The translations under genes were made by a program, and so were the position numbers. A model generated the notes under the pieces. It ran no database searches and had not been told where the DNA came from. It saw nothing but the letters and a program-made list of their open reading frames with translations. Shown here piece after piece: positions 9,453 through 45,565 of a stretch of 64,000 nucleotides of DNA; position 1 is the stretch's first letter, and each line of letters begins with the position of its first letter. Origin of the DNA: the human T2T-CHM13v2.0 reference genome, Homo sapiens; assembly GCF_009914755.1 (NCBI RefSeq), contig NC_060932.1. One strand, 5' to 3'.

Positions 9453-9927
9453 GCTGAGCTGAGGGTACCACATGCTTGAGCTATCTTTGCGGGCTCTGAC
9501 GTCTTCTAAAATGCACAATGATTTTATGTTCCATTCCACAGTATATTGTATTTAACTCCACTGTATATTGCATTTACGTTACTATAAAATGTTTTGCTTC
9601 CATGTCTTTAAGTGAAATTGATGTCCTGGGAAGATGTTTATTTCACAGGTTTTTTGATGCCTAAAATACATCAGCATGGACGCCAGTTTTCGAGCCCACC
9701 ACCTACCAGAGGGAACTGTGTACCTACCATACCCTGGCTTTCCCATCAATGTGGCAGTGGAGGCACTTGGAGAGCATTGCTGGGGAATGGGAAGAAGGTG
9801 TTCTTGTAGGCCTGGCAGGGGTGGGTTGGGGGCCCAGGGGGCCCCTTGCTGGGAGAAGCCCTTTCCAGGCACCATGGCCCATAGAGCCATGTTTAACCAG
9901 ACTCCCCCCATGTTCTCTTTTCACCAG

Positions 9928-10035
9928 GGACTACTTTATCATCTGCCCTATAATCGACATGGCCAGTGCCTGGGCAAAGAGGGCCCGAGGAAACGTCTTC
10001 ATGTACCATGCTCCTGAAAACTACGGCCATGGCAG
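9928..10035 (+). CDS. TG: TG exon 45 (108 nt, phase 2-2)
   Basis: Acceptor ttttcaccag|G and donor CAG|gtaaga. Encodes DYFIICPIIDMASAWAKRARGNVFMYHAPENYGHG(S), seen inside ORF 9749..10039. Confidence 0.97.
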
Positions 10036-11437
10036 GTAAGACGCTGCAGGGAAGCAGAGAAAGGAAGGTAAAACCGAATGATAAGTCCCAGTTCGATGAC
10101 ATGGGACACACCACTTAACCCCTCTAAGCCTCAGTTTCCTCATCTGAGAAATAGAAATAATTGTAGTAGCCACTTCATCTCACTGTCTTGCAGGCGGGGA
10201 AAGTTAAAAAAAAAAATGGTGTGAAAGGCTTTGCAAATGATGATGACACACTTTAGAACTGCAATGTTAGTTATTAATTGATTAATTTGACTTGAGAGAG
10301 GAGGCTTTTTCATTTACTCTCTATATTGATTCCTCCAGAGACTGAGCACTAGCTTAAGACATTGACTTTCCAAAGTATAAAAAGGCTTTTCTTTTCAGCC
10401 AAATGAAAGTTGTATTCATGCTTGATTTATATATCATTCTTACTTCCAGAATAGGTTCCAGCTCCCTTAGAATAAAGTATCAGGTGCAATGAAGTCATCA
10501 AAATGAGAAAGAGAAATAAGGTGCAAGTGAAAGGAAACCAACCATAAAGGAAGGGCCAAGCAATGAGCATAGAATTTAGCCTTGAGTTTCCCAGAAGCTG
10601 GGGAAAATATTTTAAAAAGAAGAAGAAAAGAAAGATTTGGGTTTCATAGCTCTAATAGCTGAACAAAGGAAGCAGAGAGACTGAGTGACAGGGACGCACG
10701 TGATCTCAGCTTCAGAGTGAAAGAACAATGCAAAGAGGGTATCTGGGGACTTGGATGACCGGCGCTTTGAATGGAGGACTATGGGGCTATCTGTTCTACT
10801 GCCCCATGAGCTTACAGTTCTGAGCCATTCATCCATGTGGGAAAACCCCAGAACCCTTCCCACTGAGGCAGTGACTTCGTGCATTAAACCACATCAGATC
10901 ATAGTGAGGTGCCTTTGGCAAGACAATCTACTCCTCTAGAGGGAAGACAGTAGTGGTGTCCTTGTGCTCAGCCTCCAATAAGCATTCACAGGTAACAGAT
11001 CATCAGGGAACACATGTCTCCAAAAGATGCAAGAGCATTATTGTTTTACTTCATATAAGAATAGGAGCAAGGCCTGCCATCTGGGGTCAAGAACATTCAT
11101 CACTCACATCCATGGTCTATTTTATGGGCAACAGGGAGCTGGGTGAAAGGACTGCAGCTTTAGAGGTGGGGGTCCAGCCACACCATATACCCGCTGTGCC
11201 ATCATAGGTAGTTTTCTTTGTCTCTCTGATCTTCAATATCCTTACCTACAAAATAAGACTAAAGTTTTTCCTCTTAGGGTTGGCATTGACAGTACCTGGA
11301 CCATAAGTTGTCCAACCCATAACAGGGCTTTACCCTGTGTTACTTAGCAAGGCAAGGGAACTCTTATAAACATGCATCATTTATCTTTACAATTAGCAAC
11401 GCCCCTAAAGTAGGCTGAATAATGGCCACCTCAAGAT

Positions 11438-11515
11438 AGACTCCTTCCCATGTCCTCCTTTCACCAGGGACTACTTTATTACCTGCCCTATAATTGACAT
11501 AGCCAGTGATTTGGC
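11438..11515 (+). pseudogene. Partial intronic duplicate of the exon 45 acceptor and exon 5' end
   Basis: agactccttcccatgtcctcctttcaccag|ggactactttattacctgccctataattgacatagccagtg aligns without gaps to 9899-9975. Confidence 0.92.
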
Positions 11516-11618
11516 CACCTTCCTGCCATTCCCCAATAATGCTCTCCAGGTGACCTCACTGCCACTACGGGAAAGAAAGGGCATTCTCATTTCTCCTAAG
11601 CACTCATTAGTTACCTGA

Positions 11619-11943
<325 letters not shown>

Positions 11944-12075
11944 TGACTCTTGCATTTTTATAGCACTCCACAAAAAAAGTTCAGAGCCCAATTTTGCAGG
12001 GTTGAAATGGCCACCTCTGTTTTACAGAGGAAGTGTGTCTCACAGTCTATTCGAGCTGCCGTAGTAAAATACCTT

Positions 12076-12519
12076 AGCTGAATAGTGGCCCCCGAAAGAT
12101 ATCAGGACCCAATCCCTGGAACCTGGAACATTACCTTATAAGGAAACAGAACCTGGGCAGTTGTGATTTAGTTAAGGATCTTGGCGTGGGGAGATAATCC
12201 TGGATTATCCCGTGAGGGCCCTGAATGCAATCTTAAGTATCCTTATAGATGAGAGCCAGAGGGAGAAGTGCTGTCTACAGAAGAGAGAAGGCAATGTGAT
12301 CACAGAGACTGGAGTGATGTGGCCACAAGGAAGGAATGCCAGTAGCAGCCAGAAACTGGGAGAGCACGGGGAGGGAGTGTGGCCCTGCTGTCACCTTGGT
12401 TTTGGCTCAAACTGGTTTTGGGCTTCTGGTCTTCAGAACTATGAGAGAAAAAAGTTTCAATGGTTTTAAACCAGTAAGTTTATGGTGATTTGCTACAGCA
12501 GCTGCAGGAAACTCATGCA
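12076..12519 (+). mobile_element. MLT1-family (MaLR) solo LTR
   Basis: gctgaatagtggcccccgaaagatatc...ccagaactatgagag...tttgctacagcagctgcaggaaactcatgca. Confidence 0.8.
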
Positions 12520-12675
12520 GTCCCCAAAGTGCTCTCATTTCCCCGGAGCACCCATTATTCATCCGCTTTCTCCAAACAGACTCTTCTGTTTTTATAGCAC
12601 GCCACAAAAAAATGTCCAGAATCCTTGTGAGCTCTGCAGGGTTGAAATGGTTACCTCTGTTTTACAGATATGAAG

Positions 12676-13042
12676 TGTGTCTCAGTCTATTCAGCCTGCC
12701 ATAGTAAATATATCTTAGCCTGGATAATTTATAAACAACGTAAACTTATTGCTCACAGTTCTGGAGGCTGGAAGTCCAAGATCAAGGCATGGGAAGATTT
12801 GGTGTCTAGTAGGGAGCTCGCTGACTGCTTCACAGGTGGCACCTTCTTTCTGCATTCTCTCATGGCAAAGGGGACAAACATTTTCCCTAAGGCCTCTTTT
12901 ATGAGAGCACTAACTCCATTCATAAGGCTCCACCCTCATGACCTAGTTACTCCCCAAAGGTCCTGTCTCTTAATACAAACACACTGGGGATTCCATTTCC
13001 GCCTATGAATTCTGGAGGGACGTAAATATTCAGAGCATAGCA
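12676..13042 (-). mobile_element. MaLR LTR (MLT1A/MST-like)
   Basis: ttattgctcacagttctggaggctggaagtccaagatcaagg...catagca. Confidence 0.8.
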
Positions 13043-17551: not shown

Positions 17552-18820
17552 TGCTGCATCTGGGTCTTTCTTCTGAAGGCCTTGGCCTCCAGGGTGCTGG
17601 GATGTCATTCCTACATCCCGATGGTGTGGAAGATGTTTCAACAAGACCACATTTAACTTTTCTTTGAATGGAAGAGTGGGGGCTGGGGTATGGCTCTTGG
17701 GATTAAACATCTACTCACGCCCCATAGAGGATGTTAGACTGGTCTTTCATTTTGGCAGAGACAGCCCAATCTAGTGAAACAGCACATCCTTTGAGACTAA
17801 ATCAACTAGAGTTTTAATCCCATATCTACCATTTATTAGCTGTTTGCATTTAAACAAATCCCTTTACCTCAATTTCCTCACCTTTAAAATAGGTATAGCT
17901 ATATCTACTTCGTAGTATGAATATTCAAGATCATGTCCATTAAACATCTGGCTCATTGCAGATGTTCAATGTTAGGTAGCTAGGGTTATTTTCCTTTTAG
18001 GAAAACTGAGGCTCTGAGAGAGAAAAACAAAACATTCAAAATGACTAAAGAGGCAATAATGTTCCTCCTTGATAAGTTGTCCCAACCCTGGAAAACAAAG
18101 CTGTAAATTCTAGACTCAAGGCATTTTGTACACCACTACACTTGCATTCTAGACACTACTGTGCATTCCAGAGGCTTTTAACATTCCAGATTCAAAATAT
18201 TATCTTTTTAGTTGACTGTCTTGGTGAGTTTGTTGGAATTAACAAACCAAAGAAAATACGAAGTGGATAGATTATTGAACTGAATCCATCAGCCTGGCTA
18301 CATCCTGTGGGATTATTTCCCAGTGTAGATGAAAATAAATCATTTTCTGAAACTGATCACTCCAACTCCTTGACATAATAGGGTTTGCACTATATATCTT
18401 CTTCAACATTGATTTGACAGAGATTTACCTAACGCCGTCTATGCTGCAGATCCCCTTCCAGGTCCTAGAAATGAGAAACCTGCAAGGCAGAGAAGAGCTG
18501 CCTTCTTGGGACAAAGACTATAGTTGCAGGTGGGGCTGATGGGTATCTAGGAATAGTGTGTAAAGAATAGACAATACACACATCAATATGCAGCATATGT
18601 TCGGATAACAGTACTAGGAAGGAGGTCCACTAGGGTGCCATGGTCAGTAATAAGAAAAGAACCTTGTGTAAAGGTGACATTTGAGCTGAGAACCAAGAAA
18701 TAAGAAGATGTGTGATCCTCATGTAGAAGTGGGAAATCCCAAAAGAAAGATCATCAAAGGCCAAGGCCCTAAGTGGGAAAGGGCTTGGCATATTTGAGGA
18801 TAAAGAAGGCCAGGGAACTG

Positions 18821-30377: not shown

Positions 30378-30840
30378 TCTATCAGTTGTCTGTGGCTACT
30401 GTCAAAATTTTCACAAACTGAGTGGCTTGAAACGACAGAAATGTATTATTTCATAGTTCTGGACACCAGAGGCCCTGGATTGAGGTGTTACTGGGGCCGT
30501 TCCCACTCCAAGACTCTGAAGGAGGATCCAGCCCAGGCCTCTCTCCCACCTTCCAGTGGCTGCTGGTGGCCAGTGTGTTTCTTAGCTCATTACTGCCTTC
30601 TGATCCCTTCCTCTGTCCTCACTGGCCTTCTTCTCTGTGCATCAAACTTCCCTCTCTTTTCTCTTAGAAGGACACCAGTCATTGGATTTGGGCCACCCTA
30701 AATCCAAAATGATCTTATCCCATGATCCCTAATTTAATTACATGTGCAAAGACCCTAATTCTAAACAAGTTCACATCAACAGGCACTGAGGGTTAGGACT
30801 TAGATGTGTCTTTTGGAGGGGTCACAATGTAAACCACTAT
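30378..30840 (-). mobile_element. MLT1-family LTR
   Basis: cacaaactgagtggcttgaaacgacagaaatgtattatttcatagttctgg...cattggatttgggccacccta. Confidence 0.75.
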
Positions 30841-31645: not shown

Positions 31646-32096
31646 TTGTGGTAGATGGGATAACTAAGACTAGAGGAAATTAAAGTTGCAGATAGAGTTA
31701 AGGTTGCTAATCAACTGACTTTAAAATATCTGGAATTACACAGATGATGCTGATGTAATCACAGGGTCCTTAAAAGTAGAAGAGGGAGGGAGAAAAGAGG
31801 ACCAGAGAGATGGCAGCATGAGAAGAATTTGGCCTGATGTTGCTGGCTTTGGAATAGAGAGAGGAGACCATGAAGCTAGGAATATAGGTGTCCTCTAGAA
31901 GGTGGAAAAGGAAAGGAAAATTATTCATCCTTAGAGGCTCCAGAAAGGATTGCACCCTGTGGACATCTTAATTTTCACCCATTTGAGATTCATGTTGAAT
32001 TTGTGACCAACAGAATGGTAAGACAGTATATTTGTGTTGTTTTAAGCCCATAAATTTGTGAAAATTTGTTGTAGCAGCCATAGAAAACTAGTGCAT
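31646..32096 (+). mobile_element. MLT1-family LTR
   Basis: atcacagggtccttaaaagtagaagaggg...gtgttgttttaagcc...gcagccatagaaaactagtgca. Confidence 0.75.
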
Positions 32097-39266: not shown

Positions 39267-39577
<311 letters not shown>

Positions 39578-41451
39578 TCATAACTTCATTCCCACAGATG
39601 CCCCCATACAATCATGTGACACCCCATATCCGTTGCATGGGTCATGACGTGGCTGGTGGTGATTGGGAGTTGGTGGAGGAGACTGCTGGAGAGAGCTTGT
39701 CCCTTGTCCCCTCTTAAACTTGGACATCTCAAGAAGGTCATGCTTAAACACTTTGGGGTCAGAATCTTTTAGTTGTTGTTCCACATGCCAGAAAGGCAAA
39801 ACCCGCCACTCTTCTCCTTGTCAACCTCTTTTCTTGCTCGCAAGAATTGAAACTGGATCAAAAATGTGGGTGCATGATGGTTTAGACAGAGGTATGGTCC
39901 AGCTCCATCAGTGGGGCTAAAAAGAACCCAGAAAAACTGCCTGGCTTTTCAATGACCTCCTCTGTAAACATCTCCATGGCACCTGGGAAAGGAGACCAAG
40001 CCAAATGTTTCTTTCTGAGTTCACTTCTAGTGTTAGTATTAGATATTTGTTCTGTTATTAATAACTGTCTTCATTCCCCTTTCCCCAGTGAGAAGCTGAG
40101 GCTGGGAGAGTTTACATAGGAAAGTTAAGTTGCCAGAGCACTCCCAAACATCCAGAAGGAGTGAGGGTTCTGAGATGCAGGAGAAGTGGATGATTTGCTT
40201 AACAGACAGTAAATAATCACCCGACAGAAGCCAAACTGTCAGGTATTGCTCCACTTACTTGTACATACAATTCTTCATGTCATTCCCACAAGAAATGAAC
40301 AGTGAAAAATCCGTTTCACCCAATTCCTGAGAGGTCCTGCCCGAGGCCATGCTGCTGTAGGAGGGATTTAGACCAAAACAGTCTGGCATGAGGGCCCAAG
40401 CGTGGCCACTTCTGCAATCAGAGGAGGAAGGACATCTGCCCAGGCCCTTGGGGATGGGTTGTTACCATGCAGGGCACCAAGGGGCTGCTGTCGGGCAGAG
40501 GCGTCAGGAGGATGAGGCAATGTCAGGGGTCAGCCCTCCAGGGCACTGGGGAATAGTCAAAAGTGACCAAGAAAATCTCCTGTAAAGCCCAGGCGATTCA
40601 GCTGTTATTTGAGCACTGTCTCTCGATTGTGCAGTGGCAGGAAGTCAGCAGGTTGGGCAGGACCAAGAAGGCTTAGGCCTAAGGCCAGAAAACATCCCCC
40701 AGGCCTCCAGGCCCAGGCATGGCTCCTGTCAGCTGCTCCACGTGCAGCTGTGGAGCCCCTTGGGTATCTCTTTGGGTTTTCCTGTGGGCAGAAGCCGGGA
40801 GACAGCTCTGGAGGGAATAAGGGGCCACCATGAACTCTCCTCCCTGGTGACTTCACTGGCCACAGAGCCGCCAGCCAGGCAGTGAATGACATCATAACCG
40901 CAGCCGAGCTGGCTCGCCAGGTGACATCAGGACCCCAAATAGCTCTGACATGTGTTAGCAGTTAGGAGAATGAGCAGGGTTAGCATGGTCTCTCCTCCCA
41001 GCCATTGGCATGCCCCGTGGAATCCTTCTGGGAATTCTTCCCCAGATGGCTTCTTGGATTGACTTATAACTTTGATTACAGAGGCATTAAAGATTATTTA
41101 AAAAGGCAGACAAACAAAAAAGAGAGAAATAATACCCAAACCCCAACACCCAGAGAGAGCTTCTCATAACGTTTTGAAATATAGCCTTCCAAGCTTGGCC
41201 TGTTTATTTATGTTTTAAAGAAATGTCATTGTGTATATTTAACGTATACAATATAGTGTTATGGTACACATTTAGATAGTAAAAAGGTCACCACCATGAA
41301 GCAAATGAACATATCTAGCACCTGGTTTTTGTTCTTCTGGCAAGAGCAGCATAAATCTACTCATCTAGCATGAACCCCATGTACAGTCAGCACTCCAAAC
41401 TCATGGGTTCTACATCCATCATTTCAACCAACCACAGATAAAGAATATTTA

Positions 41452-41772
<321 letters not shown>

Positions 41773-41845
41773 TAACAACAATAAAAAAACAGTACAAATG
41801 AAAAACAATACAGTGGAACAGCTATTTATATAGAGGTGATTAAAG

Positions 41846-41990
41846 TAGGCACAGTGGTGCACCTTTATAATCCCAGCTAGTTGGGAGGCTGAGGCAGGAT
41901 AATCACTTAAACACAGGAGCTCAAGACCAACCTGGGCAATATAGTGAGACACTCCATCTCTAAAAAGAACGCAAAGAAAAAGAAAGAAAG
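41846..41990 (+). mobile_element. Alu monomer (FLAM/FRAM-like)
   Basis: Single ~130-nt arm, aggcacagtggtgcacc...gaccaacctgggcaatatagtgagac, with A-rich tail. Confidence 0.75.
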
Positions 41991-42304
41991 TACTATATGA
42001 CACTGTGTGTAATTTATATGCAAGTAATACACCATTTTATATAAAGAATTTAAGCATCACAACTTTTCACATAGGCAGAGATCCTGGAACCCCTCCCCCA
42101 TGGATACCGACGGGCAACTATACGGTACAATTTTTGTTACCTATACTCCTCACAGACTTGATATGTTTAAAAACATATCCCTATAGCATATAACTATTTT
42201 CATGTGTAAACAAAAGTGATTCATCTGCTATTATTTTGTAATCTGCTTTTTTAAAAAACTTTTAAATAAAATATGGACATTTACCATGTCATTAATTATT
42301 CTAA

Positions 42305-42605
<301 letters not shown>

Positions 42606-45565
42606 ATTCTAAACCATTTTTAATCACTTTATACTAGGCTAGTACTGAATCCTGCATTGTTGGGAGGAAGTTAGGTTCTGATATCTTAAGTGAAAATCCT
42701 AGATTGTCAAAATTACGTTGAATGTCTATTATGTCCATAGACATACAGTTGTGGTGCAGGGTATAGCCTCTCAGCTCTAACACAATCTGTTTTTTTCTCC
42801 AGTGTGGGAGTAGATCCCTGTTTCTTTGGTTCATTATAAAAAAAAGTAGTTGGCTTGCATCTGTGGGTATTTGATGCATCATGACTGTTTACCTAGCACG
42901 TAGAGTTAAATATTCATGTTACAACGTCACCATGTTTTATCCTGCGGGCCTTCCCTTTTGCTGGACATTCCTCAGCCTCATTTTGACCTCCTCATTGAGA
43001 ACTAAACAGATGTTCTGAAGGTCCCAAATAGTCACACCACAGACTGAATTGTATAGAAATTCAGTTCTTGGAAAATGTCAGAGTTTGAAAGAACATTTAA
43101 GATCATCTCACTTCCCCTCCTCTCCCATTTTTAAGATGGAAACTGAAGTTTGAAGGGAGTAAGGCACCCCCAACAGGTTGACAGTGGCTGAGCCTGGCCG
43201 ACCTCAGCCCGCGTAACATGGACACCTGCTAATTGAGGTCCTGGCAGGGCTGGCAGGAATCTTGGGTACGATATAATACGACCCCTGCCCCCACAGTGAC
43301 TTCACACACAGTTTATCAGAGACCAGACTTCCACTTCCGGACGCACATACACACACACTACCATCTTGTGAGTGCTCATAGGCTGCGAATGCTCATGACT
43401 TGTCTGAACCTTACAACAGCTATGGCAGGTTGTCCAGGGTACAGATTATCATCCCCATTTCACAAATAGAAACACTCAGGCTCAGAAAGGGAGAGGAACT
43501 TGCCGAGGGTCACAAAGCTGGCCCTTGGGGTCTCCTGTGAGTCATTTATCTGACATCAACTCCACGGCGTATTTTTGTTCATTGTATTCCTCCTCTGACC
43601 CACTATGTCACACTGTGTTTCATAAGTCAGTGGGGAAGTAGAACCATTTCTCCAGTTGGGACAGACCCTCCTGGGGAGTGAAGGAAGAACTAGAACATAG
43701 GACTCCTAGATCCAGGCCAGCGGTTCTGGGACCTTTACTCATCAATATAGAGCCCGTGTTTCACTTAGAAAAAGGTCCCCCACTCTGTGGAGGCCCACCC
43801 TCTAGGATTGTGGCTTGGTGGGCAGAGCAAGGGCTGGAGTTCCACCATGACTCTTCCCCAACAGGAACTAAGCTGATACTATTGTGCAGGACACAACTTC
43901 CTCAGCCAGTTACAGCAGACTCGTCTGGACTTACTCAACCGAGTTCTCTTCTGGTGACGACATTTCTCTACCACGCTGGCCAGTCACATTGCTGTGGTAG
44001 CCATTACCTATCCTCAACTCATTGTCTGTCTGAAAGATGCAGAATTTCCTCCAACTAGCAAGCCACCCCTTCTACTCTGAAAAGACAGTGAGAGAAGGCA
44101 GCAGGCAAACCTGGGCTATTAACCACCCAAAGCCAGCGCCTCCTGGCAGAAATCTTAGTGTTTCTGGTTGTAGACACTCAGCTTGGCAGAGGTTGAGAAA
44201 GAATGTTGTTCCAGAACAGCTTCTCGCAGACGTCAACCCCAACTTCCGGGTCAGGCTTATTCACATCTCCTGCCTCTGCTCAGGTGGCATTCCTGCCCTG
44301 CCTGGCATGCTCTCCTCTCTTCTCCCTGGTGACCTCCTCTTCCTTTTCACATCTCCCTTTCTGTGAACCCTGCCTTGGCCTCTCTAGGAAGCTGGGAACT
44401 CGCTTCTCAACTCTCCTACAGAATATCACTGGTGCCATTTACCACTTAGAACATCGACTTGCAATCAGTTACACACCTGTCTCCCTCTCTGGATGGTGAG
44501 TTGTTCAAGGGCTGAAAGGTGTCAAACAGATATCTGTGACTCTGGAGCCTGTATAAATGACCTCATTTTCCCAGACTCTCTCCAGTCCTTTTTGTGGTCA
44601 CCTTTTCTTTTAATGAGAATAAATGGCTCCAGTTGCCATCTCTCATACCTTGGGAAGTCAATTGCCCTCCCTGTGAACTCTGGAAAGAGCAATAAGAGAG
44701 ATTGTCTGGCAATGGCCTGGGGAACGCACTATGTGCTGCCTGGACAATAAACTTTCAGGGACCAAGAGCCCTCTCCTCCCAGCTAGAGGGGCTCCACTTG
44801 GGCTGAGCTTCCCGCTAGACTGGATCTTTCATCCCCGGTGGCAGGGACTGCAACTTTTCATGGTGCTCAAGATATCCAAGCATGGAGCAGCCGGTTTCCC
44901 ACACAACAGCTATAAACAACTGACACCCAAATGCACTGAGGTGCCTGGCAATTAACCTCTCCACTGAGAAGGCTGCTTTCTCATAGTGAGGCTGTGCCCC
45001 TTCCCTGGGAAGTCACTCTGCCTCTCAGAGGTGATGGAAGGGTGAGTTTCCTGTGTCCTCTCCTCTTGCCAACCTGGCCTTGGAAGTTTCCTTTTAGCAA
45101 GAAAACCAACACCATGCCAACACTGGAATTCGTTTCCAACACTGATGCCTGGCCAATGGTGATGCCCAGACAGGCCATCCTCCTGTGCCCACCTCCAGCG
45201 TGTGACCCTCTAAATTCCAGTCCTCCTCACTCAGTGTCTGCCTCCTGCCTCTGCTGCCTTCTCCCTGAAATGCCTCCCCCATCCATGGCTTCGATTCTCA
45301 CCCTCCTTTTCCCAAACCCAGTTGCTTTAGTAGTAGGAGTCTTCCTAAAGGCCGAGTCATAAATATGACCCACAAAAGATCAGGGAAACACTGGATAAGT
45401 AACACAAGATCATTCTGAGCTCTTGGCCATCATACCACTGGACAACTACAGTGTCCATCCTTCTCCCCAAGCCCAGCCTCCCACTAGCCTGTGGAACTTT
45501 CCTACTAAGAAATGTTCCTATATTCTCTTCCTCTTCTCTTTCCAGATTGTGGCCTCTCCCTCCCT

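What the first reader, a model, noticed from the sequence alone, without database searches (positions are those of the whole stretch)
11438..11555. Duplicated exon 45 acceptor forms a candidate 82-nt poison/decoy exon in TG intron 45
Seen: the polypyrimidine tract, AG and first ~48 nt of exon 45 recur 1540 bp downstream (tttcaccag|GGACTACTTT kept intact). The copy reads DYFITCPIIDIASDL versus DYFIICPIIDMASAW and stays open (ATFLPFPNNALQ) up to a possible donor CAG|GTGACC at 11549/11550, which comes from the adjacent inverted segment. Inference: an exon at 11468-11549 is 82 nt, so adding it or using it instead of exon 45 would frameshift the ChEL domain. It could act as an NMD switch, a splicing decoy, or a latent deep-intronic disease site (a C>G change at +5 would strengthen the donor). 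It could also cause short reads or primers for exon 45 to mis-map.
Basis: partly seen in the sequence, partly recalled or inferred. Interest (0 to 1): 0.8.

Follow-up and report, generated by a model that had tools for sequence, protein, structure and literature searches.

The report
Decayed partial copy of TG exon 45
An old, decaying partial copy of thyroglobulin exon 45 sits in the next intron and looks like a small exon, but its features suggest it is a silent leftover of a DNA rearrangement, not a working splicing switch.

Summary
Window 11438-11508 copies the acceptor and 5' part of TG exon 45 (9899-9968; 88.7% over 71 nt). It abuts an inverted copy of intron 44 (9729-9800 to 11584-11516; 77.8%). 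The genome holds only these two places. An 82-nt AG...GT unit (11468-11549) stays open and would shift the frame, giving a stop in exon 47, 170 nt before the last junction.

The "poison/decoy exon" reading has no support here.
- Divergence fits neutral decay of the copy: K2P 0.12-0.17 where the source is constrained, 0.22-0.25 where both copies are free.
- The copy starts 3 nt after exon 45's only branch-site-like motif.
- It lacks all three purine runs of exon 45.
- Its donor lies inside a predicted 59-bp RNA duplex with intron 44 (-103 kcal/mol; pair probability about 0.998).

In its favour, a crude recalled matrix puts its splice sites in the range of real TG sites and among the best two such pairs in intron 45.

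The copy is one of three adjacent patches templated from nearby sequence, which suggests an old template-switching insertion. Most likely (0.72) it is a silent relic. Actual use needs RNA-seq and primate genomes, which I could not reach. No paper found describes it.

The parts
9729..9800 (+). Source of the inverted patch, in intron 44, 128-199 nt upstream of exon 45. It is arm A of the predicted long-range RNA duplex (paired span 9732-9803).
   Evidence: 77.8% over 72 columns to the reverse complement of 11516-11584; duplex
9899..9975 (+). Source of the direct patch: the last 29 nt of intron 44 (polypyrimidine tract and AG) plus the first 48 nt of exon 45. The branch-site-like TTAAC (A at 9896) lies just outside it.
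11438..11467 (+). Copy of exon 45's polypyrimidine tract and AG. Differences from the source: 3 transitions and 1 inserted T; K2P 0.116.
   Evidence: crude recalled acceptor score 11.7 against 12.9 for exon 45
11468..11549 (+). Candidate 82-nt pseudoexon. Positions 11468-11515 derive from exon 45 (85.4% over 48 nt). Positions 11516-11549 are inverted intron 44. It is open in the TG frame and shifts the frame if included.
11547..11555 (+). Candidate donor CAG|GTGACC. It differs from the reverse complement of the source by G at -1 and an extra A at +4. It lies inside the predicted duplex: 8 of its 9 positions are paired with probability 0.998 or more, and +4 is bulged.
11516..11584 (+). Inverted copy of intron 44 (9729-9800). 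It is arm B of the 59-bp duplex (paired span 11513-11581).
11585..12078 (+). Third patch: a direct copy of 12533-12719 (79.4% over 180 aligned nt, K2P 0.247), later split by an Alu.
11629..11940 (-). Antisense Alu inserted into patch 3 after the duplication. It is absent from the partner copy. The bases flanking it resemble each other (GAYTCTT-like).
   Evidence: SRP-like Rfam matches on the minus strand, below the gathering score
12077..12525 (+). Old dispersed repeat (LTR-like; family not named by any tool) lying between patch 3 and the source of patch 3.
   Evidence: 753 and 410 first-look candidates in the genome; hits span about 12077 to 12520-12527
12533..12719 (+). Source of patch 3. 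Its last 42 nt or so are the start of a second dispersed repeat, which runs on from about 12678.

Best explanation
The element is a neutral relic of one old local rearrangement. Three short pieces, all templated from within about 1.7 kb, were laid down side by side in TG intron 45: exon 45's acceptor and 5' part in direct orientation, a piece of intron 44 inverted, and a piece from just downstream in direct orientation. By accident this joined a good acceptor to a moderate donor 82 nt away, which makes an exon-like unit (a pseudoexon). I infer that it is silent, or used only at noise level, and is not a regulated NMD switch. The reasons are that it left behind exon 45's branch-site-like motif and purine-rich segment, and that its donor is predicted to be locked in a long duplex with the intron-44 sequence it was copied from. 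Shown: the copies, their boundaries and divergences, uniqueness in the genome, the frameshift, and the predicted duplex. Inferred: the single-event template-switch origin, an age of tens of millions of years, and splicing silence.
For: (1) Single old event. The two comparisons in which both copies are free to drift give similar K2P (0.221 for the inverted intron piece, 0.247 for patch 3). The two in which the source is constrained give roughly half (0.116 for tract plus AG, 0.166 for the exon part). That is what is expected if the copy decays at the neutral rate. (2) It is not a repeat family: the genome holds 2 places, the copy itself and exon 45, and the left flank 11100-11440 is single-copy. 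(3) Three abutting patches from nearby templates, one of them inverted. (4) The copy begins at source position 9899, 3 nt after TTAAC (A at 9896, 31 nt from the AG). That is the only yTnAy motif 15-50 nt upstream of exon 45. The copy has none in the same range. (5) Purine runs of 5 or more: 0 in the pseudoexon against 3, 3, 3 and 5 in exons 44-47. All 3 runs of exon 45 lie in the 60 nt that were not copied. The purine fraction is 0.38 overall and 0.29 in the intron-derived part. (6) Duplex: 59 bp (56 Watson-Crick and 3 G-U pairs), -102.9 kcal/mol, against -39.8 +/- 5.2 for 200 mononucleotide shuffles (best -54.1). Each arm's best partner is the other arm, among 751 windows of intron 45 and 566 windows upstream; the next unrelated windows reach -63.6 and -58.7. 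A fold of the whole 1921-nt stretch keeps the helix, with median pair probability 0.998 and the donor paired at 8 of 9 positions. (7) No paper was found on it, and TG is absent from a catalogue of pathogenic pseudoexons.
Against: By the crude recalled matrix the splice sites are good. The acceptor is among 4 of 1172 AGs, and the donor among 19 of 746 GTs, in intron 45 that reach those scores. Only 2 pairs of 50-250 nt reach both. The two differences from the source inside the donor (G at -1, A at +4) both move it towards the consensus, as selection for use would. However, about 2 of the 16 differences are expected to fall in any 9 of 72 columns by chance. The pseudo-acceptor is transcribed 13.7 kb before the true exon 46 acceptor, so it has a head start. 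The duplex is a thermodynamic prediction: if intron 44 is removed first, the donor is free. The divergence test rests on 29-180 aligned bases per class and has no outgroup. The purine-run and branch-motif arguments are heuristics, not validated predictors. I could see no expression data, and only 1 of 13 RefSeq TG transcripts.
Confidence: 0.72

Rival explanations
1. The functional piece is the inverted arm, not the pseudoexon. The 59-bp duplex between intron 44 and intron 45 loops out exon 45 in the pre-mRNA. It thereby influences exon 45 skipping (108 nt, in frame), back-splicing of exon 45, or the order in which introns 44 and 45 are removed. It would also gate the pseudo-donor according to whether intron 44 has already been spliced.
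For: The duplex is strong and specific. It brackets exon 45: arm A ends 128 nt upstream and arm B starts 1481 nt downstream. It is the only inverted repeat of 40 nt or more within 5 kb that lies in the TG part of the window; the other 8 of the 9 pairs listed lie beyond TG, and at least 7 of those are Alu pairs. The three Alu-like elements found in the TG part share one orientation, so they offer no competing pairing. Skipping exon 45 keeps the frame. TG makes circular RNAs in thyroid (PMC6134936, section 19 read).
Against: Only 3 of the 59 pairs are G-U, and there is no compensatory pattern to test without other species. The arms differ at 16 of 72 aligned columns, which looks like plain decay. 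The 6 TG circular RNAs in Table S8 of PMC6134936 span hg19 133,918,933-134,042,268. By my recalled offset, exon 45 lies near 134,128,8xx, so none touches it. That table lists only 146 differentially expressed circles out of 17,864 found. The same paper's supplements list no site in the 134.12 Mb range. A 108-nt single-exon circle would be unusually small (recalled).
Confidence: 0.12
2. The unit is a true cassette poison exon, included in a regulated fraction of TG transcripts to send them to NMD.
For: The frameshift gives a stop 170 nt before the last junction. Site scores lie within the range of real TG sites and among the best two pairs in the intron. The two donor differences favour the consensus.
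Against: A passage in PMC8819188 describes poison exons as conserved, whereas this copy has diverged at the neutral expectation. It has no branch-site-like motif and no purine runs. Its donor is predicted to be paired. No paper was found linking TG to a poison exon: 3 papers hold both terms, and the one work listed is a glioma atlas. TG is a structural secretory product, not a class known for splicing autoregulation (my knowledge).
Confidence: 0.06
3. The copied acceptor acts as a decoy 3' splice site. It engages splicing factors without completing splicing, which slows removal of the 15.1-kb intron 45 or promotes its retention.
For: The acceptor is a near copy of a real one (11.7 against 12.9 bits). 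It appears 1.4 kb after exon 45's donor, long before the true acceptor. A masked donor would favour non-productive engagement, as is described for decoy exons (PMC8819188 passage).
Against: The copy has no branch-site-like motif, shows no sign of constraint, and there are no data on intron 45 retention. At thresholds equal to the weakest real TG sites, 30 AGs in intron 45 qualify as acceptors and 21 AG...GT pairs qualify as units, so exon-like decoys are common.
Confidence: 0.05
4. The similarity is due to chance, or is an assembly artefact.
For: None beyond the short length (71 and 72 nt).
Against: E 5e-20 and 3e-10 within the window and E 7.7e-16 genome-wide. The two pieces abut and come from neighbouring source segments. 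The 11-22% divergence is not what a mis-assembled duplicate looks like.
Confidence: 0.01

Closest known systems
Unannotated intronic homologues of annotated exons (tandem exon duplication: Letunic et al. 2002 as cited in, and Ivanov & Pervouchine 2022 = PMC9013439; parts 1-3 of the text read)
   Same: A same-strand copy of an exon in the adjacent intron of the same gene. It is not annotated and not a dispersed repeat. That survey found 4,027 such intronic targets in human genes, only some with read support.
   Different: Only 48 of the 108 exon bases are copied, and the 3' end and donor come from an inverted intron piece. It therefore cannot serve as a mutually exclusive alternative to exon 45: it is 82 nt, not 108, and shifts the frame. 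I could not check whether it is in that paper's Zenodo table.
Pseudoexons / cryptic exons activated by deep-intronic variants (catalogue in PMC8819188; passages and one supplement searched)
   Same: An intronic AG...GT unit of exon size with near-functional sites. One substitution at donor +5 would raise the crude score from 6.8 to 10.8 bits.
   Different: No patient variant or aberrant transcript is known. TG is absent from the catalogue's supplement, and no paper pairs thyroglobulin with 'intron 45'.
Poison exons and decoy exons (as defined in PMC8819188 section 4.3, citing Carvill & Mefford 2020 and Conboy 2021; passages seen)
   Same: Inclusion would create a premature stop upstream of the last junction. 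The unit has an exon-like architecture inside an intron.
   Different: The defining conservation and alternative use are not seen (conservation) or not testable here (use).
Exon-flanking complementary intronic sequences (exon looping, circular RNA formation) and splice-site masking by RNA structure (recalled from general knowledge; competing-structure models are mentioned in PMC9013439)
   Same: A long, near-perfect duplex brackets an exon and covers a 5' splice site.
   Different: The arms are not Alus but a unique inverted micro-duplication, and no back-splice or skipping product of exon 45 is documented.
Templated-insertion / template-switching rearrangements (FoSTeS/MMBIR-type; recalled, no paper read)
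   Same: Several short segments copied from nearby templates, in direct and inverted orientation, and abutting one another.
   Different: The event is old, so any junction microhomology is no longer legible. The relation to the neighbouring LTR-like repeat is unresolved.

Membership tests
Exon-duplication-derived intronic exon homologue | Significant same-strand similarity to an annotated exon of the same gene | tested here: met
   88.7% over 71 nt, E 5e-20 in the window and 7.7e-16 genome-wide. Only 48 of the 108 exon nt are covered.
Exon-duplication-derived intronic exon homologue | Target is neither an annotated exon nor a dispersed repeat | tested here: met
   The genome holds only the copy itself and exon 45. 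It is not in the selected transcript or among the masked stretches of the hub table. The other 12 RefSeq transcripts were not visible.
Mutually exclusive exon pair | Same length class and same reading frame as the partner exon | tested here: not met
   82 nt against 108 nt; swapping shifts the frame and gives a stop in exon 47.
Poison exon | Inclusion introduces a premature stop that can trigger NMD | tested here: met
   The stop in exon 47 lies 170 nt upstream of the last junction for both inclusion and swap. The 50-55 nt rule is recalled and is also mentioned in PMC8819188.
Poison exon | Sequence conserved beyond the neutral expectation | tested here: inconclusive
   Within-genome divergence fits neutral decay (0.116-0.166 against 0.221-0.247). 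The samples are small and no other species could be examined.
Poison exon | Observed alternative inclusion in transcripts | not testable with these tools
   No RNA-seq or transcript evidence is reachable. Literature searches found nothing.
Decoy exon | Lies in a retained or slowly removed intron and binds splicing factors non-productively | not testable with these tools
   No retention or cross-linking data. The acceptor copy scores well, but the branch-site-like motif is missing.
Pathogenic pseudoexon | An activating variant and an aberrant transcript in patients | tested here: not met
   TG is absent from the catalogue supplement. There are 0 papers with thyroglobulin plus 'intron 45'. TG diagnostic panels cover only +/-10 nt of introns (PMC11260715, passages), so absence of reports is weak evidence.
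Exon flanked by complementary intronic sequences (circular RNA / looping) | Complementary sequences in the upstream and downstream introns | tested here: met
   59-bp duplex, -102.9 kcal/mol, median pair probability 0.998.
Exon flanked by complementary intronic sequences (circular RNA / looping) | A back-splice or skipping product of the bracketed exon | tested here: inconclusive
   None of the 6 listed TG circles reaches the exon 45 region, but the table holds only 146 of 17,864 circles.
Template-switch (templated insertion) rearrangement | Several abutting segments copied from nearby templates, with mixed orientation | tested here: met
   Three patches with sources 1.5-1.8 kb upstream and 0.9 kb downstream, one of them inverted.
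Template-switch (templated insertion) rearrangement | Microhomology at the junctions | tested here: inconclusive
   The junctions at 11515/11516 and 11584/11585 show no clear shared bases after about 20% divergence.

The most novel reading that the evidence does not exclude
The rearrangement built a self-masking pseudoexon. Its donor is hidden only while intron 44 is still present, so its use depends on the order of intron removal. A variant that strengthens the donor or breaks the duplex would then unmask an NMD-inducing exon. A G at +5 (11554) would do both, because it also disrupts the pair 9763-11554. Such a variant could account for some of the unsolved, one-allele TG cases of congenital hypothyroidism that exon panels miss. 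The same duplex could also tune exon 45 skipping or circularisation.
Probability: 0.1. Interest if true: 0.55.

Novelty: new member of a known kind. Interest (0 to 1): 0.27.

Why it matters
If the unit is silent, as I think, it matters only in practice. It is a place to check when TG deep-intronic variants are interpreted, since diagnostic panels read only +/-10 nt of introns and leave some patients with a single TG hit (PMC11260715). It is also a 21-nt perfect second site for any primer placed on the exon 45 acceptor. As an example it is neat: one micro-rearrangement made both a pseudoexon and the RNA structure that would hide its donor. If it were used or regulated, it would be the first unproductive-splicing control described for TG. 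Nothing here supports that.

Tried and rejected
- Dispersed-repeat origin of the copy: rejected. The genome holds 2 places only, and the left flank is single-copy.
- Chance similarity or artefact: rejected on E-values.
- Mutually exclusive partner of exon 45: rejected on length and frame.
- The open frame as evidence: dismissed. The stop-to-stop frame is only 69 codons.
- Known RNA family on either strand of 9500-12800: only sub-threshold SRP/Alu-type and other weak matches, with none over 11438-11547.
- Alternative in-frame donors after 11468: none usable. The other two GTs scoring above 2 bits give 38 nt (frame-shifting) or 411 nt with 2 stops.
- G-U enrichment in the duplex as a sign of selection: only 3 of 59 pairs, which is uninformative.
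- Other species: the genome tool states that this genome has no relatives held, so the primate conservation test could not be run.
- Literature: thyroglobulin + pseudoexon gave 7 papers, with no TG pseudoexon in any title or abstract start listed. Thyroglobulin + 'intron 45' gave 0. Thyroglobulin / deep intronic / cryptic exon gave no TG case among the 15 listed. The circTG-type terms returned, among the 15 of 73 papers listed, TGFBR2-type and other unrelated names and no TG circle. Thyroglobulin + 'exon 45' + skipping gave 2 papers, one relevant, with only a nonsense variant in exon 45. Thyroglobulin + poison exon gave nothing relevant. TG alternative splicing / NMD terms gave only the same clinical paper.
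- MaxEntScan and SpliceAI are not available. I used a recalled approximate frequency matrix instead, so those scores are rough.

Full report
**What is there**

Exon 45 of TG is 9928-10035 (hub table). Its last 29 intronic bases and first 48 exonic bases recur 1540 bp downstream.
- Best local alignment: 9899-9968 to 11438-11508, 63 of 71 columns identical.
- Significance: E 5e-20 in the window and 7.7e-16 against the 3.1-Gb genome.
- The tract, the AG and the first 13 exon bases are identical. The longest exact run is 21 nt.

Directly abutting, 11516-11584 is the reverse complement of 9729-9800 in intron 44 (56 of 72 columns). The source interval 9801-9898 between the two source pieces is not represented in the copy. 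The genome holds only the copy itself and exon 45, and the left flank is single-copy. This is therefore a local micro-rearrangement, not a repeat family.

**Wider anatomy**

The next stretch, 11585-12078, is a third patch. It is a direct copy of 12533-12719 (79.4% over 180 aligned bases). An antisense Alu (11629-11940) later interrupted it; the Alu is absent from the partner copy.

An old dispersed LTR-like repeat lies between patch 3 and its source, at about 12077-12525. A second dispersed repeat starts at about 12678. From memory the first resembles MaLR-type LTRs; no tool named it.

So three abutting pieces, one inverted, were all templated from within about 1.7 kb. I read this as one template-switching insertion. 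That is an inference: junction microhomology is no longer legible, and I could not order the event relative to the LTR-like repeat.

**Age and selection**

K2P distances:

| Segment | Constraint on the source | K2P |
|---|---|---|
| Tract plus AG | constrained | 0.116 |
| Exon-derived 48 nt | constrained | 0.166 |
| Inverted intron piece | both copies free | 0.221 |
| Patch 3 | both copies free | 0.247 |

The two free-free comparisons agree with each other, which fits a single event. The two comparisons with a constrained source are about half as large or a little more. That is what a copy decaying at the neutral rate gives. The samples are small (29-180 bases) and there is no outgroup, so this is suggestive only.

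About 0.11-0.12 substitutions per site per copy lies between typical younger and older Alu divergences (figures recalled). That places the event tens of millions of years back, in early primates.

**The candidate exon**

The unit 11468-11549 is 82 nt and open in the TG frame. Inserting it after exon 45, or using it in place of exon 45, gives a stop in exon 47, 170 nt before the last junction. That is NMD-competent by the usual rule. Skipping exon 45 alone stays in frame.

Scores from an approximate splice-site matrix that I recalled from memory:

| Site | Pseudoexon | Real TG sites in the window |
|---|---|---|
| Acceptor | 11.7 bits | 8.4-13.9 |
| Donor | 6.8 bits | 4.5-11.1 |

- In intron 45, 4 of 1172 AGs and 19 of 746 GTs reach the pseudoexon's scores. 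Only 2 pairs of 50-250 nt reach both, and this is one of them.
- At thresholds set by the weakest real sites there are 21 such pairs.
- G at +5 would lift the donor to 10.8 bits.

**Reasons to expect silence**

1. The only yTnAy motif 15-50 nt upstream of exon 45 is TTAAC, with its A at 9896. It lies 3 nt outside the copied segment, and the copy has no such motif.
2. Exons 44-47 each carry 3-5 purine runs of 5 or more bases. The pseudoexon has none. All three runs of exon 45 lie in the 60 nt that were not copied. The intron-derived 34 nt are 71% pyrimidine.
3. Because the donor sits in an inverted copy of intron 44, the pre-mRNA can pair 9732-9803 with 11513-11581.
   - The duplex has 59 pairs at -102.9 kcal/mol, against -39.8 +/- 5.2 for 200 shuffles.
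   - Each arm's best partner is the other arm, among 751 and 566 scanned windows.
   - Folding the whole 1921 nt keeps the helix, with median pair probability 0.998. Donor positions -3 to +6 are paired except +4.
   - This is an equilibrium prediction. Early removal of intron 44 would free the donor.

**An alternative worth noting**

The same duplex brackets exon 45. It is the only inverted repeat of 40 nt or more within 5 kb in the TG part of the window. The local Alus share one orientation. The duplex could affect exon 45 skipping or back-splicing.

TG does make circular RNAs (PMC6134936, section 19). The six listed in that paper's Table S8 end at hg19 134,042,268, far from exon 45 by my recalled offset. 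That table covers only 146 of 17,864 circles.

**Literature**

No paper in the searched library pairs thyroglobulin with 'intron 45', with a TG pseudoexon or with a TG poison exon. TG is absent from the supplement of a pathogenic-pseudoexon catalogue.

Unannotated intronic homologues of exons are a known and numerous class: 4,027 in human genes, some of them expressed (PMC9013439). TG diagnostic panels read only +/-10 nt of introns, and some patients remain with one hit (PMC11260715, passages).

**Verdict**

The most likely reading is a silent relic (0.72). The duplex-centred reading gets 0.12, a poison exon 0.06, a decoy 0.05 and chance or artefact 0.01. It is a new member of a known kind, of low-to-moderate interest.

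Noticed in passing
window 11629-11940 (minus strand): An antisense Alu starts 80 nt downstream of the pseudo-donor, with a poly-T run facing the TG sense strand. Antisense Alus are a common source of exonisation (recalled). The only Rfam matches here are SRP-like and below threshold.
   Followed up: partly
window 12077-12525 and 12678 onward: Two old dispersed repeats (753/410 and 1715 first-look candidates in the genome). The first is flanked on both sides by the two copies of a 187-bp segment (patch 3 and its source). That arrangement is too long to be an ordinary target-site duplication, and I could not explain it.
   Followed up: partly
window 18001-18223: This is the only other AG...GT pair (223 nt) in intron 45 whose two sites reach the pseudoexon's crude scores. 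I did not examine it further.
   Followed up: no
window 30405-30461 and 32011-32067: A 57-nt inverted repeat (74% complementary) downstream of TG. It looks like two copies of a dispersed repeat in opposite orientation.
   Followed up: no
window 39267-42622: A cluster of inverted Alu pairs (up to 299 nt, 91% complementary) lies inside the lncRNA LOC105375769 span and next to the annotated enhancer.
   Followed up: no
window 9761-9769 and 11547-11555: The donor differs from the reverse complement of its intron-44 source at exactly the -1 and +4 positions, and both differences move it towards the 5' splice-site consensus. About two differences are expected by chance in 9 columns. An outgroup would show which copy changed.
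   Followed up: partly
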